This document shows positions 894-15,045 of a stretch of 64,000 bases of DNA, piece after piece. This DNA is from a bacterium (GTDB taxonomy: Bacteria > Patescibacteriota > Minisyncoccia > Phycocordibacterales > Phycocordibacteraceae): NCBI GenBank assembly GCA_021811365.1, contig JAJZPB010000001.1, positions 32,312 to 96,311 on the forward strand, given 5' to 3'. Every line of letters begins with the position of its first letter. The stretch's first letter is position 1. The position numbers and the translations under genes are program-made. The notes under the pieces are model-generated. The model was not told the origin of the DNA. It worked only from the letters and a program-made list of their open reading frames with translations, and ran no database searches.

Positions 894-1400
894 CTCGTCT
901 TTCCGGTCAAATACCGCAGAGCTCTCCTAGAGCCACATATCAGCCGAGCAGTTCTGGATATCGCCAAGGATATCGAAGATCGGTACGACATCACGTTTGA
1001 AAAGATCGGCACCGATGGTGACCACATACACCTGCTCTGCTCTTTCCACCCAAAGTACTCTGGCTCTCAAATAGTCGGAAGGTTCAAAAGCATCACTGCG
1101 CGCGAACTGTTCAGGCGATTTCCAGAATTGCGGAAGAAACTGTGGGGCGGTGAATTCTGGAGCGACGGTTATTATTTAAATACAGTGTCGGAACGGGGAA
1201 ATTGGAAAACAGTCGAGCGCTATGTCGCCAACCAAGGAAAGTCGAGGGAGAAGTCTGTTCAGCTCACGCTCTGGCATTAGCCCATGCATCACGTCATACC
1301 TCGTCCGCTTGCGGCGGGGTTGTTGATTTAACGCCCGTTTGCCCCGCGGTTTGTACCAAGTCAGAACCACACGTAGGAATACTTACGCCGACTATTTCGC
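775..1400 (+). mobile_element. IS200/IS605-family insertion sequence (tnpA only) with subterminal GC-rich hairpins; boundaries approximate
   Basis: tnpA ORF 846-1280. Left-end hairpins ccccgc..gcgggg (785-810) and ctgaaaacc-ctc-ggttttcag (~812-832). Right-end hairpin gcggcgggg..ccccgcgg (~1306-1345). Confidence 0.55.
846..1280 (+). CDS. tnpA: IS200/IS605 family Y1 (HUH) transposase TnpA
   Basis: 144 aa. YHLVFPVKYRR, GDHIHLL (HuH) and catalytic-Tyr region EFWSDGYYLNTV are classic IS200 TnpA signatures. Confidence 0.9.
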   Translation: MGVIRSNHCAYDAHYHLVFPVKYRRALLEPHISRAVLDIAKDIEDRYDITFEKIGTDGDHIHLLCSFHPKYSGSQIVGRFKSITARELFRRFPELRKKLWGGEFWSDGYYLNTVSERGNWKTVERYVANQGKSREKSVQLTLWH

Positions 1401-2302: not shown

Positions 2303-2341
2303 ATCGGCAGTACAACAATCGAGCCATCACGGAGGAATCCC

Positions 2342-2833: not shown

Positions 2834-2947
2834 GAGGAGCGCACAATAACGGGCGACAAGGGACGGCTTACGCTGTCCCTTTTGCTTTGGCACACATTAG
2901 TGAAGTTGCGCGGTATCCACTGGTGCTGCGAAAACACACCTACTTGA

Positions 2948-3322: not shown

Positions 3323-3506
3323 GGCTCACTTAGGAGAACCCTTTTGCCCACCCTTCGCGTCTCGCTTCTTGCGTTTCGGTCGACAGACGGGGCACGAACC
3401 GCTGCCACGATACTGGTGTCCTTTGCTCCACATGCTGCACGAAGTCAGAACCTGTGGGCTATGAAAGTTGAAGACCTACCGCAGGACCTCGACTCGGTGC
3501 TGCGTC

Positions 3507-3962
3507 CTATGGGAACGTCTTGATCAAAAGCATTCCAGGACAGTCGTCATCAGGATCGTTGATGGTGCCGTGCTGAACAAAACCGAGGTGCTCATAGAAT
3601 TTCCAAGAATTGCTGTGCGTACCTGGGCTGTAGCATTGGATCTCCGTAAACGACTCACGCTTCGCGCTCTCTTCAATCTTCGCTATGAGGGCGCTGCCTA
3701 CGCCTTCCCCGCTATGTTTTGATGCCACTATGTACAGTTCTGCGGGTTTTTTCGTCTTCGCGTGCGCCTTAAGATATTCTGGTGCGTCTCTATAGCCCGC
3801 AACGCCTACCACCTCGCCCTCTTTCTCCGCAATATAATAACGTCCATTGCGCGTATCAATGTTGTGCGAAAGCTCATTTAAAAATTCGTTGTCATTCCAG
3901 TATTGAGCAAAAATTTTTTCCACGCTTTCCTTGTCTGCGTCTTCGTATTCTCGGATTTTCAT
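3507..3962 (-). CDS. GNAT family N-acetyltransferase
   Basis: 151 aa. GVAGY...ELYIVASKHSGEGVGSALIAKIEE matches GNAT motif A (acetyl-CoA binding loop) ahead of a C-terminal beta strand. Confidence 0.8.
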   Translation of the reverse strand: MKIREYEDADKESVEKIFAQYWNDNEFLNELSHNIDTRNGRYYIAEKEGEVVGVAGYRDAPEYLKAHAKTKKPAELYIVASKHSGEGVGSALIAKIEESAKRESFTEIQCYSPGTHSNSWKFYEHLGFVQHGTINDPDDDCPGMLLIKTFP

Positions 3963-4001
3963 ATTCTAAATTATATCGTGTGCGGTATTTCAAATAGTAC
4001 A

Positions 4002-4027
4002 GTGCCGCGGGGTTGCCCCCGCGGCAC
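4002..4027. repeat. Perfect GC-rich palindrome (11-bp stem, ttgc loop) resembling the IS200-end / REP-like hairpins
   Basis: gtgccgcgggg-ttgc-ccccgcggcac. Shares the ccgcgggg/ccccgcgg arms with the hairpins flanking tnpA at 785-810 and 1306-1345. Confidence 0.5.
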
Positions 4028-4079
4028 CAATCCATCAATAGATGGTCGTCAGACCAGCGCGCGGCATGCCTCGAGCAAG

Positions 4080-4274
4080 ATGGCCGACAGGGAGACTTCG
4101 GCGGCCATGAAGAGGGTCCGGTCCAACCCGCAGGAACTGAAGAAGGCAAGCAGTGAACTCAAGAGCAACTGGGAGAAAATAAAGAACGAAGCAGGGAAAT
4201 CCAAAAAGCGGGTAGGGAAGCCAGTAAAGAAAGCCGCTATGAAGGTAACCGCAAAGCGGGGGCATAAAAAGTAG
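4080..4274 (+). CDS. Small lysine-rich basic protein (64 aa)
   Basis: MADRETSAAMKRVRSNPQELKKASSELKSNWEKIKNEAGKSKKRVGKPVKKAAMKVTAKRGHKK. Internal ATG at 4080 of the longer track ORF, whose upstream part is AT-rich non-coding. Confidence 0.4.
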   Translation: MADRETSAAMKRVRSNPQELKKASSELKSNWEKIKNEAGKSKKRVGKPVKKAAMKVTAKRGHKK

Positions 4275-4302
4275 TCGAAGGGCAATCTTGTTTGCGCCCT
4301 TG

Positions 4303-4420
4303 GCTGGACACGTTCAGAACTCTGGACTGCCCACAGATCGAGAGGGAACTGGAGGATGTGGGCTTTGTATAAAACGAAAACCGCTCCTTCATCGCAAGAC
4401 GAAGGTTTGGTTTTCGTCTT
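4303..4420. repeat. Structured intergenic repeat, copy A (GTTCAGA-AC-TCTGGAC inverted repeat ... TTTGTATAAAA ... nested terminator-like hairpin)
   Basis: Aligns with copies at 5801-5910 and 6455-6570. Shared blocks are ggacacgttcagaactctg.actgg, gagagggaa.tggagg.g.ggg.tttgtataaaa.gaaaaccgc, and a hairpin with A- and T-tracts. Confidence 0.7.
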
Positions 4421-4630
4421 GCAGAAGAGGTCGTCAACAGTTCGTGTGTGAGGCCCCTCGCACTTATGGCGCTATAGTCGTGCGCGACGACCAGGAGGGC
4501 ATTGGGGGTGGTCCTTGACCCGATAGGTGGGCTGGACGGTTTGGCACGCGGGGCACAGCTCACGTATGTAGTCGCCTACGCAGAATGAAATAGCCGTCCT
4601 TGTGGAAGGGACGGCTATGCCAGAATGAGT

Positions 4631-5233
4631 TCACAAGATCGGAATAACTGCCGATGCTGTTATGCGCCATGAGGCACCGCGCCAGACAGATAGCAGATAT
4701 TCCTCGCTCCAAGCCGCATTTCCTATCGCTAGAACTGGAGAGTATGCCCTCACGTTGGGTATCCTGTCGTCCATTACAAAGTAAAGGCCATCTTCAAAAC
4801 CTGCGATGACCACAATATGTGCCGCGACGGTTGCTGTTGGATTCGTCCGTACCCAGATCGCAATAGGTTTATCGGCATTGCGCCTGAGAAACTCCAGACG
4901 GTCCGCGAGCGAAACCCGATGAATTTCCGTCAGGATTCCAAATTCACCCAACCCAGCTTTCATCATTTTGGGAAATTCAGGGTGGAACAATTGCCAAGCG
5001 AGTCCACGACGCGGAATTAAATCTACAGGTTTGCCCAACCGTGTGGCCACGAACCTTTCGCAATCCTCTCCGCAGAACGGTGGGTGGCGTAGAACAAAAT
5101 CAGGAACTTTGCCGAGTTTTACCAACAGAACCTCCTGCTGTCGCAGTTGCCCATTACTACAGTAACGTATAACCTGTATGCTGTCAAGGTTTGGCTCGGT
5201 ACATTCAACCTCCAAGTGCAACGCCCACCTCAC
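4631..5233 (-). CDS. Putative papain-like/C39-like cysteine peptidase (BtrH-like)
   Basis: 200 aa. An N-proximal Cys-containing segment (PFCGEDC), a downstream AAHIVVIAGFEDG...VMDD His/Asp block resembling the peptidase_C39-like GHxVV motif. Confidence 0.35.
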   Translation of the reverse strand: MRWALHLEVECTEPNLDSIQVIRYCSNGQLRQQEVLLVKLGKVPDFVLRHPPFCGEDCERFVATRLGKPVDLIPRRGLAWQLFHPEFPKMMKAGLGEFGILTEIHRVSLADRLEFLRRNADKPIAIWVRTNPTATVAAHIVVIAGFEDGLYFVMDDRIPNVRAYSPVLAIGNAAWSEEYLLSVWRGASWRITASAVIPIL

Positions 5234-5800
5234 GCAAGTTCGAATCCCACCAGCCCGGCGGGAAGCATCTTGCTGGGTAGGGAAGTAGGAGTATATAGCT
5301 GTTCGTTTGCTCTCAGACCATATCGTTAATATAACTTCGGCATAAAACAGAAGACCGCCTCACCGAGACGACCCGGTGGGCGATCTCTGTGTGAAGGCGG
5401 TAAGGCCGAAGCTCAGATCGCTTGAGAATTCGAAGGCCGAGCGTTTGCTGTCCTCCCAAGCCTCAAGATGCTGTCGGCTTTTGCAACTTTGTCTGGCGTA
5501 GGGCCAAGCTGTGCAGCGGTCCTGTCTCGTTATTCGCATTTCGCTTGAACAAAACCCCGCATGAACGCGGCGTGCTCGGCGCGGTGTAGGGTGTGTTTTG
5601 GCTCTCTGTCAATGAAGGCTGGAAGTGCGGCGACATACACCCCTTGGCTTACGTATATCGCCAGTCGATGTCGCATGCGTCGTTGACGCCACCGACGGAC
5701 CCATCCGGCTATTGACATGGTGAGTGTCTCCTCTGCTGTCTAAGCATAGTGTGCCACAAAGGGCACCAGGATTCCACGATTCAAGAACATTTTCCCCGTA

Positions 5801-5910
5801 CTGGACACGTTCAAAACTTTGAACTGGCCACCAGCGGAGTGTCTATGCTTGTATAATGAAGAAAAACCGCCACTCCGTCGCGAGACGAAGCTTTGGTTTT
5901 TCGTCTCGCC
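5801..5910. repeat. Structured intergenic repeat, copy B (GTTCAAA-AC-TTTGAAC inverted repeat, tataat, hairpin)
   Basis: Same architecture as copies A and C. Compensatory changes in the inverted repeat (caaa/tttg versus caga/tctg). Confidence 0.7.
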
Positions 5911-5919
5911 GAGAGGCGG

Positions 5920-6429
5920 TTAGTTGGTGCTGCCTGTCGTTGCGAGCACTTGTTTCCTATGTTTTTCCAGCAGAAACGTCAGAAGCATGTGCCCCTTCAA
6001 TCCCGAGAGATTGTTGGACGGTACGGGTTCGATCGGACCGATTGTCTCGCAGAGCACTTTTTTCATCTGCTCGACACAGTCCGACCCGCTTCCCTTAGCC
6101 ACCTTGGCCATGAACCCCACTCCCGCGAGCAGGAACCAGCCAGTGTGAACGATCGGCCCCATCTTTTCGCAGAGAGAGGCCACGCCGTCTCCTTGCGATG
6201 ATTTTACATGCGCCAGCCACCCTGAGGTTTCGACGTCACCACTCCATTCAACATACGCCCCCTCATGTTCCCCGAGTGGGAAGCGATACATGGGATCGGT
6301 TACCGCAAACACCACTTCGTCGTGGTGATCGTGGGGTATCACCCCATGCGTGAGCAAAATCGGAAAGTCCTTCATTGCGATACCCTCCAGGAAGGTGAAC
6401 AACCAGCTGGACAATGAATACCACGACAT
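5920..6429 (-). CDS. Hypothetical protein (169 aa)
   Basis: Coherent ORF. Its stop codon directly abuts repeat copy B. Confidence 0.5.
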   Translation of the reverse strand: MSWYSLSSWLFTFLEGIAMKDFPILLTHGVIPHDHHDEVVFAVTDPMYRFPLGEHEGAYVEWSGDVETSGWLAHVKSSQGDGVASLCEKMGPIVHTGWFLLAGVGFMAKVAKGSGSDCVEQMKKVLCETIGPIEPVPSNNLSGLKGHMLLTFLLEKHRKQVLATTGSTN

Positions 6430-6454
6430 TTCATCTTTGTCAGCTCCCCATTGT

Positions 6455-6570
6455 GGCCAAGTTCAGAACTCTGAACTGGGCGCAGGTTGAGAGGGAAGTG
6501 GAGGTGGTGGGGTTTGTATAAAATGAAAACCGCCCCTTCGCACGAAACGAAGGGTTGGTTTTCGTTTCGT
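6455..6570. repeat. Structured intergenic repeat, copy C (perfect GTTCAGA-AC-TCTGAAC inverted repeat ... TTTGTATAAAATG ... hairpin)
   Basis: Aligns with copies A and B. The hairpin cccttcg-cacgaaa-cgaaggg is flanked by aaaacc/ggtttt. Confidence 0.7.
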
Positions 6571-6582
6571 TGAGTGAGGCGA

Positions 6583-6813
6583 TTATACGCTGATGACTTC
6601 GCCGCGAGGGCCGTACACCATGACCATGGCCATGAACATCGTCATGCCGCAGCTCGTGTGACTGGTCGACGCGATTGCGGCTGCGGCACCATTGAAGCCA
6701 GCTTCCGTCAGGCGTCTCCTAATATCATCCTCCGACTTGGAAGATGCGACGATGCGTTTGGCGACCGTTTCTGCTTCGTCGGTCGTCATTTCGTTGAAGG
6801 GTTTTTGGGACAT
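6583..6813 (-). CDS. Small hypothetical protein (76 aa)
   Basis: The ORF stop abuts repeat copy C. A TTGACA-17-TACATA promoter-like element lies ~80 nt upstream on the minus strand. Confidence 0.4.
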   Translation of the reverse strand: MSQKPFNEMTTDEAETVAKRIVASSKSEDDIRRRLTEAGFNGAAAAIASTSHTSCGMTMFMAMVMVYGPRGEVISV

Positions 6814-6981
6814 CGTTCTAGCGTCCTTCCGGGCGAGGTAGAATTAAGGGACGAAGCGGACGGACTGCCCGCATCTGATTGTTTATGTAGCACGACAGAA
6901 TACATTTGTCAAGTTTGCTCCCCATGTTGCACGAAGTAAGAACCTATGCACCTGCGATTTAAACAAATAAAGAACCGCCCT

Positions 6982-7410
6982 TCACGGGCGGCTCCAGCCG
7001 AGACGTAGCCTTGCTAGTTCGCGCACTTCCTTCAGGTCTTTTTGTCCCTCTCTGGGGTATTTTGCAAATTCCTCCAGCAGGTCCTGTGGACATACGGGAT
7101 TGTTTACAAGCGCCATGCAGATGTACCAGTGGCGCTCGGTCGCGACTTCACGATGCTGGTCGAGCGTCACACGGACGCTTGCGGCAACGGCTTGACGCAG
7201 TACCCAATTCGAGGACCGTAACGCCTTGGTGGCAAGTTCTTGTATAAAGGCATCCGGAATGGCGGGAGAAGTATTACCGATGACGCTCGCGCGTACTGCG
7301 TCGTCCGGATCGCAGCCCAGTTTGCGGAGCTCGTCGCCAGGCGTATGGACGCTCGACGCTCTCCTCACTCGCTCGTATCGAGTCCCGTCTGACTTATCTG
7401 CGTAGCTCAT
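6982..7410 (-). CDS. Hypothetical protein (142 aa)
   Basis: ORF followed on the minus strand by a hairpin terminator (ccgccc-ttca-cgggcgg at ~6968-6990). Overlaps the next gene by 17 nt. Confidence 0.5.
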   Translation of the reverse strand: MSYADKSDGTRYERVRRASSVHTPGDELRKLGCDPDDAVRASVIGNTSPAIPDAFIQELATKALRSSNWVLRQAVAASVRVTLDQHREVATERHWYICMALVNNPVCPQDLLEEFAKYPREGQKDLKEVRELARLRLGWSRP

Positions 7411-7651
7411 AGTACATTGCCTCGCTTTTCAGGCCGCGTTTGCGGCCAGCTTCCTTCTCTTTGTGATCCAGGTAGATGACCCGCTCGGAGTCCACAACAC
7501 TGAACCCTGGGCAGTTCCGGAGGGACACAGTTCTTTTCTTTCTTCCCTCGAGCGTCCCGTACGACTGGGGTGATGCTATACGCCCGGCTCGGCATTTCTG
7601 CTTGCGGTGCTCTATGGCGGAGCGACCGCAGTGCTGGCACAGTTCATTCAT
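7394..7651 (-). CDS. Hypothetical zinc-ribbon-like small protein (85 aa)
   Basis: A CQHCG...C cysteine pattern near the N-terminus. Translationally coupled to 6982-7410. Confidence 0.4.
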   Translation of the reverse strand: MNELCQHCGRSAIEHRKQKCRAGRIASPQSYGTLEGRKKRTVSLRNCPGFSVVDSERVIYLDHKEKEAGRKRGLKSEAMYYELRR

Positions 7652-7790
7652 GGGTCTACTCCACAGTTTCCTACCGAAACCTAGCTAAACGGAGGAGAGG
7701 AGTCAATGCCAAGCCGCTAGTCGGACATGAAGGCAATAAAACAGTAGACCGCCCTCACCGAGACGAACCCAGTGAGGGGCTGGTCTTCGG

Positions 7791-8066
7791 TCAGGCGGGT
7801 TCCAGTTTGAAGTGCTGCTCGGGCTTCGTATCGTCGGCGGGCCAGATGACGCCATATCCGCGCTCTTTCCACCACGCATTGGCGAGTGGCGTTACGTGGC
7901 GTGCCCATTCGGCAACGCGCACGTCGACTTCCGCACGCTCATCTGGGCACATGAGTTCGAGCACCTTCTTGGAGGTCACCCGCTTCGTTTCGAGCCAGGC
8001 CGTTCTCAGTTGTTCAATGTAGGCGCGGTAGTCCGGGCATAGTTGCTCAAAAGCCGTTTGGTCCAT
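7791..8066 (-). CDS. Hypothetical protein (91 aa)
   Basis: ORF followed on the minus strand by a hairpin plus TGTTTTATT terminator (7745-7790). Confidence 0.45.
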   Translation of the reverse strand: MDQTAFEQLCPDYRAYIEQLRTAWLETKRVTSKKVLELMCPDERAEVDVRVAEWARHVTPLANAWWKERGYGVIWPADDTKPEQHFKLEPA

Positions 8067-8153
8067 CGTCTAGTGCAAGCCAAATGTGATAGACTGCCGG
8101 TTGGAGCATCTGCACTGCGCAGAAGCGCGTCATACAATGGAAAGGGCAGCAGC

Positions 8154-8855
8154 ATGTTGATTTATGCGCCTCCGGAACTTGCGGCGCGTGCCTCGCGCCT
8201 TGTCGCTGAAACTGGTGTGGCTATGGTAGATCCAGACGGGTGGTTTACTTACACGGGAGGGATTCGCAGTCCGGTGTACCTGCAAATCCGTGACCTGACT
8301 AAATATGCGCCACAATGGATGGAAGTTGTGCGGTGCATGGCGGAGTTCATCCGATGGGCGATGACTGACGCTGTTAGCGGAAGTCAGCGCATACCGGAGC
8401 CGATGAAAGGGGTGTACGGAGTTCCTGAAGGGGCAACGCTCCTTTCCGGTGCACTTGCGTACGAGCTTGGAGTAGGTGCCATACGTATCCATCAAGAAAG
8501 GAAAGCGTATGGCATAGGGCAGACTTTATTCGGTATCCGCCCCTTCGAACAAGCTTGTGTCCTTGAAGACACGAGCTCCACCGGTACAGCTGTTGTCGCA
8601 AAGGGTGTTGCGCCACTCCGAGCATGTGGGGTGCGCGTTGAACACGCATTTCTCTTCGCTTCTCATGGCCTCGGAGTTGCCGAAACATTTGAGAGATGCG
8701 GGGTCACCGGCTTCTGTCTGTGCCGATCAGAGGATATATTTGGCCATGTTCTTGAACGCTCACAACACGACGAGCGAACACGGAGAATCGTCAGAGCATG
8801 GTTCGAAGACCCTGAGACTGCCTCGAACGCCTACGTCGTCTCGCATCCAGCGTAG
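8154..8855 (+). CDS. pyrE: Phosphoribosyltransferase, orotate PRTase (PyrE)-like
   Basis: Start taken at the ATG at 8154, preceded by ggaaaggg. TYTGGIRSPVYLQIRD matches the PyrE PRPP/orotate loop, and VLEDTSSTGTAV matches the PRTase type-I PRPP-binding motif. Confidence 0.6.
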   Translation: MLIYAPPELAARASRLVAETGVAMVDPDGWFTYTGGIRSPVYLQIRDLTKYAPQWMEVVRCMAEFIRWAMTDAVSGSQRIPEPMKGVYGVPEGATLLSGALAYELGVGAIRIHQERKAYGIGQTLFGIRPFEQACVLEDTSSTGTAVVAKGVAPLRACGVRVEHAFLFASHGLGVAETFERCGVTGFCLCRSEDIFGHVLERSQHDERTRRIVRAWFEDPETASNAYVVSHPA

Positions 8856-8920
8856 TGGGAGGAAACGCTTGTTCGAAAATACGCCGCATCTACTCGACCT
8901 ACATTGAGAGCGCCGTTTCC

Positions 8921-8956
8921 ACGGCGTGATTACCCCAATCACGCTGTGCTTTTTAT
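8921..8956 (+). terminator. Rho-independent terminator after the pyrE-like gene
   Basis: acggcgtgatt-acccc-aatcacgctgt forms an 11-bp stem, followed by gctttttat. Confidence 0.6.
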
Positions 8957-9299
8957 CCCATCCATGCGAGGCATTGTACCGACGCAGACGAAAGCTATTT
9001 TGTAGCGGCAGAGACAGTGTTAAACCTCGGTTAAACCTCGCAAAGCGAGCCCTCGAGATCTTCGAGAGTTCGGAAGTGCTCGAGAAACGAGCCCTTCTCA
9101 ACGTCTTATTTCAGAGCTCGGTTGTGGACGGAAAAACCCAGTGTTTGCACTGCGTCCTCCCTTTGACACTATCCTCACCTTGACTAAACAACCTACTCTG
9201 CCCCAGGCCATATCGTTAATATAACTGTGGTGTAAAAAAGAAGGTCTTCTCGCCGTTGCTTGTGACGAGAAGACCAACGCAGGTTCTAGGTGTGCGAAC

Positions 9300-10526
9300 T
9301 CACTTCATGCGGTTGAGTAACGCAGCTTTTGCAGCAAGTTCTCTTTCGTACTGACTTGCATGCCGGTGCGCCAGTTCTCCAGCCGCCGTCGTGTAGTCGT
9401 CGAGGAGCGCTTGCAGGCGTAACGAGAGCTGAGGGTCCCCTTTGCCGACTTTCCTGAGAAGATACCGGATGAAGTCGCATTTATCGTGCCTATTTATGTC
9501 ATCCGGATTGATCCTCACGAACTCGCGAGTGCCAAGCGCTTGCCGAATTATGGCAAACCGCAACGGACGCAGGTCAGGCGTCCCGAAGGTGGTGTCGAGA
9601 AGACGACGCGCTACTCCGTACAGCGTGCCCCGGCTCCTGTTCTCCTGGAGCCAGTTTTTGTCCCCGAGTTCTGCCGCGTGTTCCAAAGTGAACGCGGCTT
9701 GTGTCGCAAGGAGTTCCCGGCTATAGGGCAGGTTCTCCATGCGCGCACACTCCACAACGCGCTTGAAGTAGAAGACGTATGGGGAAGACTGAAGAGGGCG
9801 GGATGCCGTCTCCCTCTGCAGAACCTCCTGGCGCATGAGCGCGTTGCCCCTTTGCTTCCATTCTTCCGGCACAGCTGCGGTCAACAGGAGTGCAAAGGAT
9901 TGGTACACGTACATGTAGCCATTTGCGCCGTCCACAGGAACTGTTGCTTCGAGATGAAGACTCTTGAAGAGACGCTCCAGCTGCTGCCCGTCCTCCCTGT
10001 ATAGCTCCATGAGGAAGATGATCCACGTGTTGTAGACGAAGATGTGGCCATTACGGTGATCGTGCGCGGACAGGTCCGAGCAAGGGGCTTCAGCAAGGAT
10101 CTTGGCGCTGTACACCAAAAGATCCGTCAGAAAGGCACGCAGATGGGGGGTGAGCGCCTCAGCAACGCGTTCCCGATGTTCCGGCACGAGATCCCCAAAG
10201 CAGGTGTGACTCCAAAGACCGGAGTAAACCCAGTGCCCGCACAGAGGTCGGAGGGACCGCTTACCGAATGGGTAATAACTGTCACCTCCGTACCCATAGA
10301 ACGGCACTAAGCTCTGCGCTAGGCCTCGGGCCTTGAAGGCCGGGTTGATGTCAGGGTTTTCGAGCAAGCTGTAGAGGCGATCGTCAACCCCGAGGTACTC
10401 TTCGAACAGAGCGTTCCCCGTCCTTTCAGCTTCTTCCGTCAGGCCGAAGTGGAATCGCAGCAGTTTGCGCACCGCATTGCGATAGCGCAGGGCATTGCGT
10501 TGTTCAGTTGTCTGAGCAAAAGCCAC
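9300..10526 (-). CDS. Hypothetical protein (408 aa)
   Basis: Long coherent ORF, followed on the minus strand by a ggtcttctcg/cgagaagacc hairpin plus T-tract terminator (9228-9275). No recognizable motifs. Confidence 0.55.
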   Translation of the reverse strand: MAFAQTTEQRNALRYRNAVRKLLRFHFGLTEEAERTGNALFEEYLGVDDRLYSLLENPDINPAFKARGLAQSLVPFYGYGGDSYYPFGKRSLRPLCGHWVYSGLWSHTCFGDLVPEHRERVAEALTPHLRAFLTDLLVYSAKILAEAPCSDLSAHDHRNGHIFVYNTWIIFLMELYREDGQQLERLFKSLHLEATVPVDGANGYMYVYQSFALLLTAAVPEEWKQRGNALMRQEVLQRETASRPLQSSPYVFYFKRVVECARMENLPYSRELLATQAAFTLEHAAELGDKNWLQENRSRGTLYGVARRLLDTTFGTPDLRPLRFAIIRQALGTREFVRINPDDINRHDKCDFIRYLLRKVGKGDPQLSLRLQALLDDYTTAAGELAHRHASQYERELAAKAALLNRMK

Positions 10527-10723
10527 AGCACGACTCCTTTGTGTTGTTGTGAAAGGATCTGGGCGGCCTTTTTATGGTAAGTATACGGCCACTTTGGTCC
10601 GGTCAAATTAGTACCAAAAAATACGAAATTGTCAATTAGGCGTATTGGTTCACCTATTCGCGCGCTCCCCTGGGGAGCAGGACCTACTCAGGCAGGGAAG
10701 TGGGAGTATATTAAAGTTCTTTT

Positions 10724-10785
10724 GCTCCGCATGTAGGTCATTGTTCTAACCTAGATTTAGAGGCAAGAAAGGGTATTTCTAAGCA
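10724..10785. repeat. Imperfect direct repeat, left copy (attL-like), flanking the AT-rich island
   Basis: tgctccgcatgtaggtcattgttctaacctaga...aggcaagaaagggtatttc aligns with 13184-13245. Confidence 0.6.
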
Positions 10786-10840
10786 TCAATGGCTCTTATC
10801 TATTTGTTCCAATCATCACGAAAACTGCTACGATGAAAGT

Positions 10841-11350
10841 ATGGGAAAGAAGAACAATTCAGAACATAATCCACTCAAAGAAGCATATGCGCTTTTGCAA
10901 GTATCTTCCTCGAGCGAGCTAGCTCGCGAGTTTATTAAAGAAGACCAAAGGCTCTTAAAAGCACAAATCTGGGATTACAAAAAGTCAGGACTTGTTTTAA
11001 ATATAGTTAAAGAAATAGTTGAATCTGCCATTGATAATGAGTTTACAACACGTGATAAGGACAGTGAGGATGTTTTAAAAACCATTTTATGGTTTTGGTA
11101 CCATCATGCTATCGGATATGCAATCTGGGGTTATAAAGATAAGGCGGAAGCGCTCGAGTTTTCTTCAAAGGCGCTCAAGTACCAGACTTCTGATAATCCA
11201 AATAAAATCACGCGTTTACTCTACCTCTTGGTTCGCGACGAAGAGAAAGACGCGGCTCTTTGGTTGGAAACTATCGTCAATGAACCAGATAAAACTGCTT
11301 CTCACGGAATAATGAAAGAGTATTTGGATGGAAATTTCTTCAAACCCTGA
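10841..11350 (+). CDS. Hypothetical protein (169 aa) encoded in the low-GC island
   Basis: AT-rich codon usage distinct from the surrounding genome. Trp/Tyr-rich helical protein with no assignable family. Confidence 0.55.
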   Translation: MGKKNNSEHNPLKEAYALLQVSSSSELAREFIKEDQRLLKAQIWDYKKSGLVLNIVKEIVESAIDNEFTTRDKDSEDVLKTILWFWYHHAIGYAIWGYKDKAEALEFSSKALKYQTSDNPNKITRLLYLLVRDEEKDAALWLETIVNEPDKTASHGIMKEYLDGNFFKP

Positions 11351-11460
11351 GTTCAATAAGTAAACGCAACACTTCCGCTAATCTAGTTGATATTTCTTAT
11401 TATAACATATAGTATCCCTTTTGGATGGAGGGCCCTCTGTCTATGTAGTGTAAAAGGAGA

Positions 11461-11655
11461 TTGACAGTGGCTAAATCGAACGCTTTAAGGAAGGTGGATG
11501 TCTCAGCTACCGCTCCGCTCATGTTGCGGCGCGTTACTACAAAACCACTAACGATTATTCCCATGATGAACATGACTGTCGTTTCATCGCCTGGCAGACT
11601 TCCTGAAATGAGTGATCAGGTGGGTGACACGACTGCACCAAGGCACGATCGGTAA
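11461..11655 (+). CDS. Small ORF (64 aa), a weak candidate substrate peptide for the adjacent ATP-grasp ligase
   Basis: Convergent with the ATP-grasp gene. The C-terminal half is rich in T/S/D/E (TVVSSPGRLPEMSDQVGDTTAPRHDR). Coding status uncertain. Confidence 0.15.
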   Translation: MTVAKSNALRKVDVSATAPLMLRRVTTKPLTIIPMMNMTVVSSPGRLPEMSDQVGDTTAPRHDR

Positions 11656-11726
11656 GTTCGAATAAGTAGAAATAAGGCCGGAGCAGTGATGCTCCGGCCT
11701 TATATATTTGCTCAAAACTACAGATT

Positions 11727-12770
11727 TCAAAGCGACTTGAGCATGCTTGCGACAGCTTGCGGAATCGATAATTCTGCGTAGTGTTCAATCCACCCCCATT
11801 GCCCGCAAGGGTTTACTTCAAGAAAGACGTATTCTCCATTGGGCATTTCTATGAGATCAATTGCGCCGTAGTTTAATTCAATTTTCCGCATGAAGCGAAG
11901 TAAGTGCTTCTGAACTATAATTGGGAGTTCGACACGAATGTGTTCAACATTGTCGAAGTCGTAGTGACGCCAATCAGTCCTTGTCATTGAACTTGCTTGA
12001 GAGTCAATCCGACATGCCAAGACCTGATTGCCTATTACCATAACCCTGTACTCGTAACGTTTCTCAACGTATTGTTGCGCAAAGAGAGGACATGCTTGTA
12101 TTGCGTCTGGGCTGTTGAGTAACTCCTCATGCGAGAATCGCTCGGAATACAAGAAGTCATTACCAGCCGCGTCCAATTTCATATAGCCAAGCGTTTTTAG
12201 AAGAAGGCCATTTTCTTTTGTGGAAAAGGCCATAACACTTTCTGGATCATTGCTGATGATGGTTTGCGGAGTCTTGAGCCCGCAGCGTTGCGCAATTTGC
12301 TGCTGATACAATTTGTTACTGGAAACGCGGACGATGCTTTCTTTCCGGTTAACCCATTTGCAATCAAGAACAGATACGAACGATAGAAATGCACATCGCG
12401 ATTCATTTTCCGCAAAACGTATTTCCAAGGACGCATCAGCCTCTCGCGCATCATCACTGCTCTCGCGTATATACCACGCAACATCGATGTCTCGGATCTG
12501 AAGACGAGCTTCCACAAGTTCTTGCTCGACATATTTCAGCACATCGATGAACCCAAGAACAGAACCGGAATCATCAAGTGCCATATGTATAACGGCCTGA
12601 TCGAGGATTCGACCCGGGTCAAAGACATAGACACACAGACCTACTTCTATGCATGGAGCAACGAAGGCGTCGTAGTAATAACGCTCACTGAGGCTAGCTA
12701 CAAACAGAACATTTTTCACGAGCGTTCTCCCTTTCATGGATCGATGAATCGTCCAAAGAAAAGGATACAA
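11727..12770 (-). CDS. ATP-grasp family ligase (RimK/MdnC-like)
   Basis: 347 aa. YEYRVMVIGNQVLACRIDSQ...RTDWRHYDFDN...GAIDLIEMPNGEYVFLEVNPCGQWGWI matches the ATP-grasp C-terminal core, including the E-x-N Mg-binding motif. Confidence 0.8.
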   Translation of the reverse strand: MYPFLWTIHRSMKGRTLVKNVLFVASLSERYYYDAFVAPCIEVGLCVYVFDPGRILDQAVIHMALDDSGSVLGFIDVLKYVEQELVEARLQIRDIDVAWYIRESSDDAREADASLEIRFAENESRCAFLSFVSVLDCKWVNRKESIVRVSSNKLYQQQIAQRCGLKTPQTIISNDPESVMAFSTKENGLLLKTLGYMKLDAAGNDFLYSERFSHEELLNSPDAIQACPLFAQQYVEKRYEYRVMVIGNQVLACRIDSQASSMTRTDWRHYDFDNVEHIRVELPIIVQKHLLRFMRKIELNYGAIDLIEMPNGEYVFLEVNPCGQWGWIEHYAELSIPQAVASMLKSL

Positions 12771-13183
12771 CGAATCTAATGTTTTTCAATAGTTCATAGC
12801 TGACGACTTTGAAACTATTAACTGGGCTAAGGAGTATCCCGCGCCGGACTTCACGATACAGCAAATCAAGGCGGGTTCCGGCCGACATTGGTGGAGCGGA
12901 CGCCGCACGCATCGAGGAGATCAAAGGCACCCCCTCAATCTGATTGTGGGAGTGGCCGAAGTATTCCGTAGTGGCAATATAGAGGAGAAAAAGGAGGCTC
13001 TTCCAGAGCCCGGTTAGAACCTAGAACTCAAAGGCAAAAAACTCAGTGTTTCCACCAAGAAAGACCTTGAGGTGACTTCAAAAAGCTTTCTTGCGGTACG
13101 TGCGTAAAATCCGGTGTTTGAACCTAGAAATTGTGAGGCAGATAAAGACGAAACGGAGGCTTTCGCCTCCGTTCGTCCAGTCT

Positions 13184-13245
13184 TGCTCCGCATGTAGGTC
13201 ATTACTCTAACCTAAGGACGCGAGGAAGAATAAGGGTATTTCAGA
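13184..13245. repeat. Imperfect direct repeat, right copy (attR-like), flanking the AT-rich island
   Basis: tgctccgcatgtaggtcattactctaacctaagga..gaggaagaataagggtatttc aligns with 10724-10785. Confidence 0.6.
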
Positions 13246-13327
13246 GTCTTCGAGCCACGGGTCGGCCTGTTGAGACACTCGCGCCCCAGAGGACCACAGC
13301 AGGCCACAAGAGAGGTATGATGGGAGC

Positions 13328-14044
13328 ATGTCTCCAGACGAGATCGGGAAAGCGGCAATCGACTTTGCCAAGAAAAACAAGAATAAGATCGCCAATGAGC
13401 TCACCGACCTCAGCCGCTTCGTACCGGATGATCATCCGATTTCTGTGTTTATGGCGGGGTCACCGGGTGCGGGTAAGACCGAGTTCTCAAAGGAACTTCT
13501 CGGCATATTGGAGGCAGATGACCAACGTAAGGTGGTGCGTATTGATGGCGATGATATACGCGAGCGTATGCCGGGGTATGTCGGCAACAATTCGGCCTTG
13601 TTTCAAGGCGCAATTTCCATAGTAGTTGAGAAGATTCACGACCTCGTACTCGACAAGAAACAGAGCTTTATTCTCGATGGAACGTTCTCGAAATACGATA
13701 AGGCCGCGGACAACATTCGGCGTTCATTGCGCAAGAACCGAATCGTCTTTATTTTCTACGTCTACCAAACGCCCCATACCGCGTGGCGGTTTACTCAAGC
13801 CCGCGAGCGCCTCGAGGGGAGAAACATACCAAAGTCTGCCTTTATCGAGCAGTTCTGCGGGGCTAAGGAAACAGTCGAGCGGCTACATCGAGAGTTCACG
13901 GATAAAATAGTACTCTTCTTGGTGAAGAAAGACTTCAGTACGAGCGCAACTGAGGAGGTGGTAAAAATGATTGATCCAGCCACGTCGATTGACTCATATA
14001 TCGGCGAGCGATACACTAAAGAAGAACTTGAGAAATCACTATGA
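13328..14044 (+). CDS. Zeta-toxin family kinase (PezT/zeta-like, P-loop)
   Basis: 238 aa. The Walker A motif VFMAGSPGAGKTEF and the VVRIDGDDIRE motif are characteristic of zeta toxin UNAG kinases. Confidence 0.75.
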   Translation: MSPDEIGKAAIDFAKKNKNKIANELTDLSRFVPDDHPISVFMAGSPGAGKTEFSKELLGILEADDQRKVVRIDGDDIRERMPGYVGNNSALFQGAISIVVEKIHDLVLDKKQSFILDGTFSKYDKAADNIRRSLRKNRIVFIFYVYQTPHTAWRFTQARERLEGRNIPKSAFIEQFCGAKETVERLHREFTDKIVLFLVKKDFSTSATEEVVKMIDPATSIDSYIGERYTKEELEKSL

Positions 14045-14253
14045 AATGGCTTACAAAAATACTACGAAATGACGAACCTGAGGCGACAACTGTCGCTCGC
14101 ACGCCGTACATGAGCGAGTATAACGGCCTTTCGGATTTTCTTCGCAATGCTCCACAGCAAGAAAAGATTGATGTTTTTACAGAAGCTGCAAAACGTGCAA
14201 GCGAAGATCAAAGACGAACGCTTGAGAGGGCCAGAGTTCTGCACTCCAGCTAA
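14041..14253 (+). CDS. Small hypothetical protein (70 aa) overlapping the zeta-toxin stop by 4 nt (ATGA)
   Basis: Translational coupling to the zeta-like gene. Acidic/helical sequence. Possible cognate antitoxin in a non-canonical (downstream) position. Confidence 0.35.
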   Translation: MKWLTKILRNDEPEATTVARTPYMSEYNGLSDFLRNAPQQEKIDVFTEAAKRASEDQRRTLERARVLHSS

Positions 14254-14326
14254 AAACTAAAGAGCGTCACCCTCGGGTGACGCTCTTTAGTGTGCCTGTC
14301 TCCAGGCGTAACATACATTGCCCAGT

Positions 14327-14398
14327 ATAGGCTAGCTCCGCGGGTAGGATTCGAACCTACGACCAATCGATTAACAGTCGACCGCTCTACCACTGAGC
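14327..14398 (-). tRNA. tRNA-Asn (anticodon GTT)
   Basis: The reverse complement folds as a cloverleaf: acceptor tccgcgg/ccgcgga, D-arm gctc-agtggta-gagc, anticodon stem gtcga/tcgat with loop ctGTTaa, and T-arm gtagg-ttcgaat-cctac. CCA is not encoded. Confidence 0.85.
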
Positions 14399-14531
14399 TA
14401 CCGCGGAATGCGTCTTTGCCAACAAGAGAATGCAAGAGGCCCTTCTCGGCACGCCTCTCAAAGAGGCATGGGCATTGTAGCGGAAAAAGTTAGCAACGCA
14501 AAGGGCGGAAAAGGTTTGGTATAGTGCGCGT

Positions 14532-14774: not shown

Positions 14775-14776
14775 GT

Positions 14777-15007: not shown

Positions 15008-15045
15008 AATACGCCCGCGGCTGTGCCGCGGGCGTATTTCATTTT

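What the first reader, a model, noticed from the sequence alone, without database searches (positions are those of the whole stretch)
3422..13215. Mosaic of short repeat families concentrated in the first 14 kb (TTTGCTCCNCATG...AACCT; GGGAAGTRGGAGTATAT; CCATATCGTTAATATAACT)
Family 1 has four copies: 3422-3456, 6914-6948, 10722-10755 and 13182-13215 (the last two are the island direct repeats). Family 2 is at 5279-5296 and 10695-10712. Family 3 is at 5318-5336 and 9208-9226, each immediately beside a minus-strand terminator hairpin. The families are joined in different combinations. At 5279-5336 family 2 is followed by family 3. At 10695-10755 family 2 is followed by family 1. This is the pattern expected from repeated site-specific insertions and deletions, or from a modular recombination site. 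None of these motifs recurs in the housekeeping 14-64 kb part of the window.
Basis: seen in the sequence. Interest (0 to 1): 0.5.

Follow-up and report, generated by a model that had tools for sequence, protein, structure and literature searches.

The report
Recombinase attachment sites bounding gene cassettes
The three "repeat families" are versions of one attachment site used by a large serine recombinase that inserts foreign DNA at the end of a tRNA-Asn gene, so they mark the seams of a stack of acquired gene cassettes, probably in a Patescibacteria (CPR) genome.

Summary
All copies sit where stated, exceed chance, and are absent from 14-64 kb. The three families are one thing: a 5-nt core (GCTCC) plus the phage-type (P') half-site of a large serine recombinase (LSR) attachment site. 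Family 1 is core plus P' arm. Family 2 is the far end of a longer form of that arm. Family 3 is a sequence variant with the same geometry. At least eleven same-strand copies (1338-13215) point at tRNA-Asn (14335-14407, minus strand).

In related loci the motif is the in-frame 3' end of LSR genes. In L085 an intact element has it at attL, and its LSR reads into tRNA-Gln at attR. The conserved GAACC block lies 16 nt from the core in the motif and 11 nt in the tRNA. That is the 5-bp attP/attB offset published for serine integrases.

A strain about 98% identical (L081) lacks window 6922-14334, and the junction falls exactly in GCTCC. The window holds only an LSR pseudogene remnant (12934-13194).

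Verdict: a tRNA-anchored accretion island, which is a new variant of a known kind. It is unresolved whether the LSR-less one-gene units are decayed elements or cassettes mobilised in trans.

The parts
1338..1372 (+). Diverged site copy c0 (TTTGCCCCGC...GTCAGAACC), just downstream of IS200 tnpA
   Evidence: 66% identical to the 3422 copy (D3). It fits the geometry pattern TGCBC-N18-MKAACY. In the recombinase frame it translates LPRGLYQVRT.
3422..3466 (+). Family 1 copy c1: core GCTCC plus P' half-site, encoding the tail MLHEVRTCGL*
   Evidence: (nhmmer E=2.6e-10). It is 91% identical over 45 nt to the single copy 385 nt from tRNA-Asn in the syntenic locus L013.
4289..4420 (+). Long-form copy c2: core GCGCC, P' arm, an extended tail reading frame (LRPWLDTFRTLDCPQIERELEDVGFV*, stop at 4370-4372), then a hairpin
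   Evidence: D1/D2/D5; best tail-HMM hit, but this copy was in the model. The tail matches the long C-terminal tails of LSR proteins P0011, P0048, P0063 and P0074.
5233..5298 (+). Truncated, frameshifted long-form copy c3a. Family 2 (5279-5296) is its tail end (REVGVY)
   Evidence: GGGAAGTAGGAG matches GAGAGGGAAGTGGAGG in the long-form tails.
5303..5336 (+). Copy c3b: core TTTGCTC plus a family 3 variant of the P' arm (GCTC-N18-ATAACT)
   Evidence: fits the geometry pattern. The left arm is shared with 10691-10727, and the two diverge right after TTTGCTC (D13). The L081 copy GTTGCT TCCATG CCATATCGTT ATAACC links family 3 to family 1.
5790..5912 (+). Long-form copy c4 with a degenerate core, followed by a hairpin
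   Evidence: D2, D5; tail-HMM hit 5795-5848, not in the model.
6437..6573 (+). Long-form copy c5 (core GCTCC at 6443, tail ...FRTLNWAQVEREVEVVGFV*), followed by a hairpin
   Evidence: It is conserved in strain L081 (site 10524).
6914..6948 (+). Family 1 copy c6. It is the attL-type junction (B arm, GCTCC, P' arm) at the left edge of the strain-variable 7.4-kb segment
   Evidence: In L081 the same left arm (GAATACATTTGTCAAGTTT GCTCC) continues directly into tRNA-Asn.
6922..14334 (.). 7,413-bp segment present in the window and absent from the ~98%-identical strain L081. It is a composite of at least four units: 6949-9195, 9231-10662, 10756-13181 and 13216-14334
   Evidence: (L081rc 9259-11002 = window 5178-6921; L081rc 10998-20510 = window 14335-23849). 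Unit GC is 44-56% against 55% in the core.
9193..9226 (+). Family 3 copy: core-like TACTCT plus the variant P' arm. A weak LSR-like remnant may lie upstream (9025-9138). A minus-strand hairpin follows
   Evidence: D6; LSR-HMM hit at 9025-9138, E=2.0, weak. The core assignment is inferred from alignment with 5303-5336.
10663..10712 (+). Truncated long-form copy c7a (GCGCTCCCCTGG...), ending in family 2 (10695-10711)
   Evidence: It shares GCTCCCCTGG with the long-form copies in L039.
10721..10755 (+). Family 1 variant copy c8 (GCTCC GCATGTAGGTCATTGTT CTAACCT), at the left end of the low-GC unit 10756-13181
   Evidence: D4; E=2.3e-7.
12796..12873 (+). Remnant of a long-form tail (DDFETINWAKEYPAPDFTIQQIKA)
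   Evidence: tblastn hits of P0048 residues 528-553 and P0063 residues 543-565.
12934..13194 (+). Pseudogene remnant of the 3' end of an LSR gene, with two in-frame stops. It runs into copy c9 and ends ...FEPRN..SVRPVLLR|M
   Evidence: tblastn of P0048 residues 442-528, E=7e-5; translation; LSR-HMM hit at 13018-13098.
13182..13215 (+). Family 1 variant copy c9, a P-P'-type junction: the LSR-remnant arm on the left and a P' arm 94% identical to c8 on the right
   Evidence: D4; E=5.5e-6.
14335..14407 (-). tRNA-Asn(GTT). Its 3' end (GCTCC at 14335-14339 on the + strand) is the integration target, and its acceptor/T-arm is the B' half-site
   Evidence: In L079 an LSR gene reads straight into tRNA-Asn, and in L085 into tRNA-Gln.

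Best explanation
The repeats are copies of the attachment site of a family of large serine recombinases (LSRs). These enzymes integrate mobile DNA at the very 3' end of tRNA genes, here tRNA-Asn. Each copy is a short crossover core (GCTCC) followed by a phage-type (P') half-site. In the excised element that half-site also encodes the recombinase's own C-terminal tail.

Integration joins the core and P' arm to whatever lay downstream of the tRNA, giving an attL-type junction. The other end of the element comes to lie against the tRNA. Repeated events at the tRNA-proximal site push older units outward. The result is a same-orientation array of junctions separating units of one to five genes.

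Families 1, 2 and 3 are respectively the core with its P' arm, the end of a longer form of that arm, and a sequence variant of the arm. Recombination at the common core explains why the same left arm is found joined to different right arms.

Shown: site identity, geometry, the link to LSR genes and tRNAs, and a strain polymorphism with breakpoints in the core. Inferred: that an LSR of this family catalysed the events in this genome, the order of events, and how units lacking a recombinase arose.
For: 1. Motif conservation. The motif recurs with extended similarity in about 20 Patescibacteria loci. Copies within a locus always share one orientation, and arrays are common: 6 copies in L077, at least 4 in L069, 4 in L039.

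2. Link to LSR genes. In L012 and L067, and truncated in L065, the motif is in frame at the 3' end of ORFs with Resolvase, Recombinase and Zn_ribbon_recom domains. Among the best 120 of at least 6,942 homologues, the proteins share ...YSQSPxLL[RP]. After that they diverge into three classes: antisense-tRNA translations (DSNLQP and similar), immediate stops, or motif-type tails (by my reading of the listing, roughly 45, 45 and 25). This places the junction at TTGCTCC.

3. Integration at tRNAs. In L079 the LSR reads directly into tRNA-Asn.

4. An intact element. In L085 the LSR reads into tRNA-Gln at attR. At attL, 9.3 kb away between host and cargo genes, lies a motif-type P' arm. The shared core is CTGCGGG.

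5. Geometry. The conserved xxGAACC block starts 16 nt after CTCC/CTGC in the motif and 11 nt after it in the tRNA. This 5-bp shift of the zinc-ribbon-domain motif between attP and attB is the one published for serine integrases (PMC3783163). The LSR-side arm carries the dyad partner in L012 and L077.

6. Strain polymorphism. L081 is 98.4-98.7% identical on both sides and lacks window 6922-14334. Its sequence GAATACATTTGTCAAGTTT-GCTCC-GCGGGTAGGATTCGAACC joins the left arm of copy 6914 directly to tRNA-Asn.

7. Recombinase remnant. An LSR pseudogene remnant runs into the copy at 13182 (tblastn E=7e-5).

8. Not gene duplication. There is no paralogy among the cassette proteins. The motifs are absent from 50 kb of core genes.
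Against: There is no intact LSR in the 64-kb window or in the 20 kb of L081, so the acting enzyme in this genome has not been seen.

Most units are too small (0.4-1.2 kb) to have carried an LSR and show no LSR remnant. Under the published rule, attL and attR are not substrates without an accessory factor (PMC3783163 abstract). That rule does not by itself explain tandem arrays of attL-type sites, or integration next to a P-type arm as at 13182.

In L079 no attL with a recognisable P' arm was found.

Insertion in the window lineage and precise excision in the L081 lineage cannot be told apart.

All evidence is computational.
Confidence: 0.85

Rival explanations
1. A serine-recombinase cassette platform. 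The LSR-less units are not decayed elements. They are gene cassettes that each carry only a core and a P' half-site, and they are captured and excised in trans by an LSR encoded elsewhere. The tRNA 3' end would play the part of an integron attI and the motif the part of attC. This refines the best explanation rather than excluding it.
For: Site-to-site spacings of 0.3-1.2 kb recur in several genomes: the window, L077 (565-1238 nt), L069, L025 and L039. Only one clear LSR remnant was found among about eleven window sites. Left arms are unconstrained while right arms are conserved. The unit next to the tRNA (13216-14334, zeta toxin) has no LSR, yet its P' arm is 94% identical to that of the neighbouring unit that holds the LSR remnant (D4). 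In L012 a minimal unit of site, one cargo gene, LSR and site is flanked by direct P'-type sites.
Against: Known serine integrases need two half-sites per site and do not recombine attL-type sites alone (PMC3783163). Deletions that remove the LSR and spare the essential tRNA would also leave small LSR-less units. No circular cassette or shared cassette in a different array position was observed; the one cassette protein searched was an ORFan.
Confidence: 0.3
2. Displaced partial tRNA copies left by classical tyrosine-integrase islands inserted in tRNA-Asn.
For: The array abuts tRNA-Asn. The reverse complement of the motif shares TAGGTTC(GAA) and GCGGAGC with the 3' part of the tRNA.
Against: No Phage_integrase domain was found among the 20 ORFs scanned in 1-14.3 kb. 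The duplicated sequence at the polymorphic junction is only 5 nt, not a 15-50-nt tRNA segment. The motif is 5 nt longer than the tRNA between the shared blocks and is the in-frame end of serine recombinase genes.
Confidence: 0.03
3. Generic intergenic repeats or shared regulatory modules: promoter or operator sites, terminator-linked repeats, REP or MITE elements, or ends of the neighbouring IS200 element.
For: All copies are intergenic, and many sit beside terminator hairpins, which are enriched at 28 against 14.2 +/- 3.8 expected. A TTGACA box often lies just left of a copy. An IS200 tnpA lies next to the copy at 1338.
Against: The position relative to flanking genes is not constant: convergent at 3422, tandem at 6914, divergent at 10721 and 13182. 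There are no copies in 50 kb of core genes. The motif is not palindromic. Variation has period 3 (entropy 1.06, 0.30 and 0.83 bits at codon positions 1, 2 and 3, with a partly circular filter), with synonymous CTG/TTG and AGA/CGA changes. The motif is coding in LSR genes. Most loci with the motif have no tnpA.
Confidence: 0.03
4. Intergenic sequences copied along with duplicated genes (paralogous gene plus flank duplications).
For: Repeats up to 113 nt long recur between small genes on the same strand.
Against: All-against-all BLASTP of the 20 predicted proteins gives no pair below E=0.02.
Confidence: 0.02

Closest known systems
Serine integrase attachment sites (attP/attB/attL/attR; Listeria A118-type LI integrase model, Rutherford et al. 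2013, PMC3783163)
   Same: The associated enzymes have the Resolvase, Recombinase and Zn-ribbon architecture. There is a short common core. The half-sites carry an outer conserved motif that lies 5 bp closer to the centre in the host site than in the element site. The element-borne site shows dyad symmetry.
   Different: The target is the extreme 3' end of tRNA genes. attP overlaps the recombinase's own stop region, so integration swaps its C-terminal tail. Many attL-type sites stand in tandem without a recombinase, which the standard directionality rules do not predict. Sequence relationship to A118 and TP901-1 integrases is distant (E about 1e-6 over single domains).
Dehalococcoides ssrA genomic islands (DsiB serine recombinase; McMurdie et al. 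2011, PMC3146451)
   Same: Multiple tandem islands lie downstream of a single tRNA-like gene. Their boundaries are marked by short direct repeats. The enzyme is a roughly 540-residue serine recombinase related to CcrB. Some islands lack integration genes and are read as cis-mobilisable, accreted units.
   Different: The Dehalococcoides target is tmRNA, with insertion in the T-loop and a 20-bp repeat of the gene's 3' end. Here the crossover is at the acceptor end or discriminator of a tRNA, the duplication is only 5-7 nt, and the conspicuous repeat is the element-derived P' arm. Units here are often single genes of 0.4-1.2 kb. The host phylum is different.
Staphylococcal cassette chromosome composite islands (CcrAB/CcrC at rlmH)
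   Same: From general knowledge: large serine recombinases, a target at the 3' end of a conserved gene, and direct repeats delimiting tandem cassettes, including ones without recombinase genes. The Patescibacteria LSRs give their best NCBIfam hits to XisF and CcrB.
   Different: The scores are far below the family cut-offs (78-102 bits against 375-900), so these are not Ccr or XisF proteins. The target is a tRNA, not rlmH. A single recombinase gene is seen, not a ccrA/ccrB pair.
Tycheposon islands of Prochlorococcus (Hackl et al., bioRxiv 10.1101/2020.12.28.424599)
   Same: The islands are anchored at tRNA genes. Incoming elements push resident ones further into the island. Degenerate elements and scattered attachment-site remnants are present. 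A minority of elements use large serine recombinases.
   Different: Most tycheposons use tyrosine recombinases (910 of 937) and leave partial tRNA copies. Here the scattered repeats are not tRNA copies, and the recombinase family is serine-type throughout.
Integron cassette arrays and CALINs
   Same: They work alike in outline. Arrays hold small, mostly unknown-function genes in fixed orientation relative to a repeated recombination site. Sites vary in sequence but share a common geometry. Arrays occur without an adjacent recombinase.
   Different: There is no IntI tyrosine recombinase and no attC-type imperfect palindrome with RYYYAAC/GTTRRRY ends. The anchor is a tRNA rather than attI. The site derives from a serine recombinase gene end.

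Membership tests
Large serine recombinase (serine integrase) attachment sites | A gene for a recombinase with Resolvase, Recombinase and zinc-ribbon domains lies next to the site | tested here: met
   Met in related loci L012, L067, L077, L079 and L085. In the window itself only a pseudogene remnant remains, at 12934-13194 (tblastn E=7e-5).
Large serine recombinase (serine integrase) attachment sites | A short core identical in the empty site and at both junctions of the insert, within which crossover occurs | tested here: met
   GCTCC is shared by the L081 empty site, window 6917-6921 and window 14335-14339. CTGCGGG is shared by attL and attR of the intact L085 element.
Large serine recombinase (serine integrase) attachment sites | The outer (zinc-ribbon-domain) motif of the half-site lies about 5 bp closer to the centre in attB than in attP | tested here: met
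   The motif has CTCC-N16-[TA][AC]GAACC and tRNA-Asn has CTCC-N11-TCGAACC. L085 gives N16 against N11 with tRNA-Gln. The published rule was checked in PMC3783163.
Large serine recombinase (serine integrase) attachment sites | Imperfect dyad symmetry of the element-borne site (P and P' arms) | tested here: met
   L012 has TTTGAACGTAT against TCAGAACCTAT, and L077 has TTTTAGAGTAC against TTTTCGAACAC, at matching distances from the core. This is not met by the recombinase-less copies, whose left arms are unrelated, as expected for attL-type junctions.
Large serine recombinase (serine integrase) attachment sites | Recombination between the sites is catalysed by the cognate enzyme | not testable with these tools
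   This needs an in vitro or in vivo assay.
tRNA/tmRNA-anchored tandem (accretion) genomic islands | The island abuts the 3' end of a tRNA or tmRNA gene, and repeats of the attachment site mark unit boundaries in one orientation | tested here: met
   At least eleven + strand copies lie between 1338 and 13215, all pointing at tRNA-Asn (-) at 14335-14407. The same layout is seen in L013, L042, L049 and L068.
tRNA/tmRNA-anchored tandem (accretion) genomic islands | Presence/absence between close relatives, with breakpoints at the repeats | tested here: met
   L081 lacks 6922-14334. A second difference (window 766-5177 against 1.3 kb in L081) does not have both ends at recognised sites.
Integron (IntI, attI, attC cassettes) | An IntI-type tyrosine recombinase, and attC sites with RYYYAAC...GTTRRRY imperfect inverted repeats | tested here: not met
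   No tyrosine recombinase domain was found among the 20 ORFs. The 7-mers ending in AAC in the copies (TTCTAAC, CTCTAAC, TCAGAAC) do not fit RYYYAAC, and the motif has no inverted partner.
SCC elements (Ccr recombinases at rlmH) and XisF | The recombinase scores above the CcrA/B/C or XisF family cut-off, and the target is rlmH or fdxN | tested here: not met
   Best scores are 78-102 bits against cut-offs of 375-900. The target is a tRNA.
REP/RAYT, MITE or IS200/IS605 end sequences | Palindromic or hairpin-forming units dispersed through the genome in both orientations and associated with a Y1 transposase | tested here: not met
   The core and P' arm have no inverted repeat. All copies are on one strand and confined to 1.3-13.2 kb of 64 kb. 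tnpA (846-1280) is adjacent to only the weakest copy and is absent from most loci that carry the motif.

The most novel reading that the evidence does not exclude
The core-plus-P' sites may be active recombination sites rather than scars. On this reading, Patescibacteria carry a gene-cassette capture system run by a large serine recombinase. The 3' end of a tRNA gene is the docking site. Single-gene cassettes bearing only a half attachment site are inserted, stacked and excised in trans. This would be a serine-recombinase counterpart of the integron. As a by-product, the recombinase's own C-terminal tail is exchanged on integration, which could act as a switch between the integrated and excised states.
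Probability: 0.3. Interest if true: 0.8.

Novelty: new variant of a known kind. Interest (0 to 1): 0.6.

Why it matters
Patescibacteria (CPR) have tiny genomes, and little is known about how they acquire genes. My full-text searches found no paper that links serine recombinases to genomic islands in this group.

This recombinase family is very large: at least 6,942 database proteins at E<=1e-20. Its attachment-site arrays recur in loci whose records are titled Saccharibacteria, Paceibacterota, Kaiserbacteria and Adlerbacteria. tRNA-anchored serine-recombinase islands may therefore be a main route of accessory-gene flux there. Cargo seen in these arrays includes restriction-modification systems, an OLD-family nuclease, a zeta toxin, GNAT acetyltransferases and many ORFans.

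There are practical consequences.
- The motif gives a simple marker for island boundaries in CPR assemblies.
- It explains odd C-terminal extensions (DSNLQP and similar) in annotated recombinases as read-through into tRNA genes.
- It supplies natural attP/attB pairs with defined geometry for a large, untapped set of serine integrases.

If the recombinase-less units prove to be mobilised in trans, this would be a new type of cassette system.

Tried and rejected
**Readings of family 1 made by eye and dropped**
- A sigma-70 promoter on the + strand (TTGCTC-N17-CAGAAC): the -10 element is poor.
- A sigma-54 promoter: the GG-to-GC spacing is wrong.
- An alphaproteobacterial-type LexA box (GAAC-N7-GAAC): not kept in the window copies.
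- A dif/Xer site: there is no dyad, and GC skew looks origin-side rather than terminus-side.
- An integron attC: no RYYYAAC/GTTRRRY ends.
- A hairpin RNA: the candidate stem is broken in L042 and L072.
- A free-standing leader peptide (MLNDVRT...): superseded when the frame proved continuous with recombinase ORFs.

**Searches that gave little**
- Rfam at gathering threshold finds only the two tRNAs.
- The genome-collection scan returned 61 hits, about the number I estimate for chance. Only the 7 in records titled as candidate-phyla (CPR) taxa were real.
- The same pattern in IMG/VR gave one unrelated hit, so these are not recognised viruses.
- Four exact-protein look-ups found nothing because of start-codon choices. 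Look-ups of the zeta toxin, peroxiredoxin and P0123 returned only the same Logan sample.
- The Logan contig break at 14340-14363 lies inside tRNA-Asn. I read it as an assembly effect, not evidence of an island edge.
- No attL was found for the L079 element.
- The 169-aa cassette protein has no homologues beyond strain variants, so cassette sharing between arrays could not be tested.
- The LSR-like signal upstream of the family 3 copy at 9208 is too weak to claim (E=2.0).
- The L070/L073 difference starts just right of the motif but has no site at its other end. It was not used as evidence of cassette exchange.

Full report

Yes. Family 1 is at 3422-3456, 6914-6948, 10721-10755 and 13182-13215, with a weaker fifth copy at 1338-1372. 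Family 2 is at 5280-5296 and 10695-10711: 2 matches against 0.12 expected, and no shuffle reaches 2. Family 3 is at 5318-5336 and 9208-9226, both exact, against 0.00 expected.

The 37 nt at 5276-5312 and 10691-10727 are 81% identical and end in TTTGCTC. After that one continues as family 3 and the other as family 1 (D13).

Nothing similar occurs in 14-64 kb by self-BLAST, nhmmer, a peptide HMM or a geometry-only pattern. That pattern gives 7 matches, all on the + strand within 1340-13212, against 0.87 +/- 1.02 expected. It was derived from the copies, so the count is partly circular.

This repeat turned out to be the key to joining the families.

**2. Surroundings**

The first 14 kb holds small, mostly minus-strand ORFs with few recognisable domains:
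- IS200 tnpA (846-1280)
- DUF2103
- a GNAT acetyltransferase (3507-3962)
- an ATP-grasp protein (11727-12719)
- a zeta toxin (13328-14044)

The rest have no Pfam match, and none is a tyrosine or serine recombinase. tRNA-Asn(GTT) lies on the minus strand at 14335-14407. Core genes follow it. The predicted proteins are not paralogues of one another, so the repeats were not copied along with duplicated genes.

**3. The motif is conserved far beyond this genome**

A scan of one genome per species with the family 1 pattern returned 61 hits, about what I estimate for chance. Seven of them are in records titled Saccharibacteria, Paceibacterota, Kaiserbacteria and Adlerbacteria, and these share similarity well beyond the pattern. 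A stricter pattern found 12 more in metagenomes.

Variation among copies has period 3 after an ATG: CTG/TTG, AAC/GAC/CAC, GAN, GTC/ATT/CTT/TTT, AGA/CGA, ACC. This reads M-L-[NDH]-[DE]-[VILF]-R-T. Entropy is lowest at the second codon position: 1.06, 0.30 and 0.83 bits at positions 1, 2 and 3 (the filter used is partly circular).

**4. The motif is the end of a recombinase gene**

In L012 and L067, and truncated in L065, this reading frame is continuous with a long upstream ORF. That ORF has Resolvase, Recombinase and zinc-ribbon domains, so it is a large serine recombinase (LSR).

The family is very large: at least 6,942 proteins at E<=1e-20, and every taxon name that sources give in the listed rows but one is Patescibacteria-group (the exception is Candidatus Aerophobetes). 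The C-termini of the best 120 all share ...YSQSPxLL[RP]. After that they split into three classes (the counts are my reading of the listing):
- Roughly 45 continue as DSNLQP or DSNPRPTGY, which is the antisense translation of a tRNA T-arm.
- Roughly 45 stop at once.
- Roughly 25 continue with the family 1 or long-repeat peptide, for example LLRLLDDVRTC... or LLPVLDAFRMVNWKKIKEEVE...

The sequence therefore changes partner exactly at TTGCTCC. TTGCTCC is also the reverse complement of the tRNA acceptor end, the discriminator base and the first trailer bases.

**5. The families unify**

Translated in the same frame, the long repeats read L[RP]PWLDxFRTLDWxxIEREVExxGFV*. This is the long version of that tail.
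- Family 2 (GGGAAGTRGGAGTATAT) is the end of the long tail, REVGVY*. The copies at 5233-5298 and 10663-10712 are truncated long forms.
- Family 3 has the same geometry as family 1, GCTC-N18-ATAACT against GCTC-N18-AGAACC. A copy in L081 (GTTGCT TCCATG CCATATCGTT ATAACC) bridges the two.

The mosaic is thus the same left arm recombined with different right arms at a common core.

**6. What kind of site?**

In L079 an LSR gene reads straight into tRNA-Asn...ATGTTGCTCC|CGGGGTCGGATTCGAACC.

L085 holds an intact 9.3-kb element.
- At one end the LSR reads into tRNA-Gln: AAAATCCTACATTG-CTGC-GGGGCTTGGAC-TCGAACC.
- At the other end, between a host peptidase gene and the cargo, lies GAGCGTTTTTACC-CTGC-GGGTCGTGGACGATGT-TAGAACC-TGTTT. 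This is a family 1-type arm.

Joining the recombinase end to that arm reconstructs an attP that encodes a motif-type tail.

The conserved xxGAACC block starts 16 nt from the core in the motif and 11 nt from it in the tRNA. This holds both here and in L085. A 5-bp inward shift of the zinc-ribbon-domain motif in attB relative to attP is the feature proposed to distinguish the two sites of serine integrases (PMC3783163, read). The recombinase-side arm carries the dyad partner at the attP distance in L012 and L077.

Family 1 is therefore the core plus the P' half-site. Copies without a recombinase on their left are attL-type junctions, and their left arms are indeed unrelated to one another.

**7. 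Direct evidence in this species**

The 169-aa cassette protein has only strain variants in the database. One variant led to L081, a 233-kb contig from another metagenome.
- L081 matches window 5178-6921 at 98.7% identity.
- L081 matches window 14335-23849 at 98.4% identity.
- The two blocks overlap by 5 nt.

The three junction sequences are:
- L081: GAATACATTTGTCAAGTTT-GCTCC-GCGGGTAGGATTCGAACC (tRNA-Asn)
- Window, family 1 copy at 6914: GAATACATTTGTCAAGTTT-GCTCC-CCATGTTGCACGAAGTAAGAACC
- Window, tRNA side: CAGTATAGGCTA-GCTCC-GCGGGTAGG

So 7,413 bp (6922-14334) are present in one strain and absent from the other, with breakpoints in the 5-nt core. Whether this was an insertion here or a precise excision there cannot be decided. 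Either way it is site-specific recombination at these sites.

The crossover lies at the very end of the tRNA, so the mature tRNA sequence is untouched. CCA is not encoded in this gene. This explains why the elements need not carry a tRNA fragment.

**8. Structure of the variable segment**

- 6949-9195: three small genes and a phosphoribosyltransferase-like gene (my reading of the sequence; Pfam gave no match), 56% GC.
- 9231-10662: one 408-aa gene.
- 10756-13181: two genes, 44% GC. This unit ends in a long-tail remnant (12796-12873) and an LSR pseudogene remnant (12934-13194; tblastn E=7e-5, two in-frame stops). The remnant runs into the copy at 13182.
- 13216-14334: zeta toxin plus a 70-aa ORF, 50% GC.

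The copies at 10721 and 13182 are 94% identical. They bracket a once-autonomous element whose recombinase has decayed. The unit next to the tRNA uses the same arm type but has no recombinase.

**9. Generality**

Arrays are common, and copies within a locus always share one orientation.
- L077: six copies 0.6-1.2 kb apart, then an LSR with a motif-type tail, then an OLD-family nuclease and a type I restriction system.
- L069: at least four, and up to eight with a looser pattern.
- L039: four copies in 3.2 kb.
- L025, L052, L070 and L012: two to four each.

tRNA-Asn lies 0.4-3 kb from the motif, in the same relative orientation, in L013, L042, L049 and L068. L013 is syntenic with the window's right flank and has a family 1 copy only 385 nt from the tRNA.

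**10. What remains uncertain**

No intact LSR is present in the window or in the 20 kb of L081.

Most units are too small to have held one, and only one clear remnant exists. Under the published rule, attL and attR do not react without an accessory factor (PMC3783163 abstract). That rule does not predict stacks of attL-type sites, or integration beside a P-type arm as at 13182.

Two readings fit.
- Each unit once had a recombinase next to the tRNA. Deletions that spared the tRNA removed it and re-opened the site.
- Recombinase-less cassettes with only a core and a P' arm are mobilised in trans.

I favour neither strongly. I give the second about 0.3.

**11. Comparison with known systems**

The closest analogues are listed here.
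- The tandem ssrA islands of Dehalococcoides, which use a CcrB-like serine recombinase, 20-bp repeats and accreted units without integration genes.
- SCC composite islands.
- Tycheposon islands, where incoming elements push older ones inward; these are mostly tyrosine-recombinase elements with partial tRNA repeats.

The Patescibacteria enzymes hit XisF and Ccr models only far below the family cut-offs. They hit solved A118 and TP901-1 integrase domains only distantly. Full-text searches found no description of such arrays in Patescibacteria.

I rate this a new variant of a known kind. It is a tRNA-end-targeting serine-recombinase island system whose visible repeats are element-derived half-sites that double as the recombinase's C-terminal coding tail.

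**12. Taxonomy caveat**

The source organism was not identified directly. The assignment to Patescibacteria rests on three points: the syntenic locus L013, whose record is titled Candidatus Saccharibacteria; the source names attached to the recombinase homologues; and the record titles of the loci that carry the motif.

Noticed in passing
window 766-1337 (tnpA 846-1280): An IS200/IS605-type Y1 transposase gene (Pfam Y1_Tnp, E=5e-35). Its upstream hairpin (about 775-800) begins exactly where 100% identity to strain L081 ends (window 765/766). In L081 the minus-strand ORF corresponding to window 51-893 continues uninterrupted. The window's 766-5177 is replaced there by 1.3 kb of other DNA. This second strain difference is not bounded on both sides by recognised sites.
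   Followed up: partly
window 5342-5371 and 7736-7766: A terminator hairpin and its flank are repeated at 93.5% identity (AAAACAGAAGACCGCCTCACCGAGACGA...). This suggests that terminator modules also travel with units of the array. Terminator-like hairpins are enriched in 1-14.5 kb (28 against 14.2 +/- 3.8).
   Followed up: partly
window 13328-14253: The unit nearest the tRNA is a zeta-toxin-family kinase gene overlapping a 70-aa ORF by 4 nt, followed by a perfect 17-bp bidirectional hairpin (14256-14291). It may be a toxin-antitoxin-like addiction module, but the small ORF lies downstream rather than upstream of the toxin gene.
   Followed up: no
L071 1129-1228: A truncated site copy (TTTGCTCCGCATCGTGAACAACGTT) abuts the encoded CCA end of tRNA-His, and a full copy lies 550 nt away. 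The junction is at a different position from the GCTCC core and is not explained by the model.
   Followed up: no
L013 (reverse complement) 615-650: A second P'-like arm (CGCACTGGACGAGTCTAGAAC) sits 2 nt from the GCTCC of tRNA-Asn. It looks like a site with no cargo between it and the tRNA.
   Followed up: no
LSR proteins P0003-P0120: Many database recombinases carry C-terminal extensions such as GQDSNLQPND or GWDSNPRPTGYTYP. These are antisense translations of the adjacent tRNA gene. So the annotated C-terminus depends on the integration state, and tRNAs other than Asn (Gln shown in L085) are also targets.
   Followed up: partly
L077 11680-21674: Directly downstream of the recombinase at the end of a six-site array lie an OLD-family nuclease gene and a complete type I restriction-modification system. 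L079 and L085 elements carry GmrSD with an EcoRI-type methylase, and a SacI-like enzyme with a C5-methylase and Vsr. Defence genes appear to be frequent cargo.
   Followed up: no
window 3365 and 14340-14363 (Logan contigs L001, L063): An independent assembly of sample SRR13189623 breaks at 3365 and inside tRNA-Asn. The second break is probably a k-mer shared among tRNA-Asn genes in the community. The first is unexplained and lies 57 nt left of the family 1 copy at 3422.
   Followed up: partly
window 4080-4274: A 64-aa lysine-rich ORF has a weak match to histone-like Hc1 (E=0.004, below the Pfam cut-off). A minus-strand ORF overlaps it, so which strand is coding is unclear.
   Followed up: no
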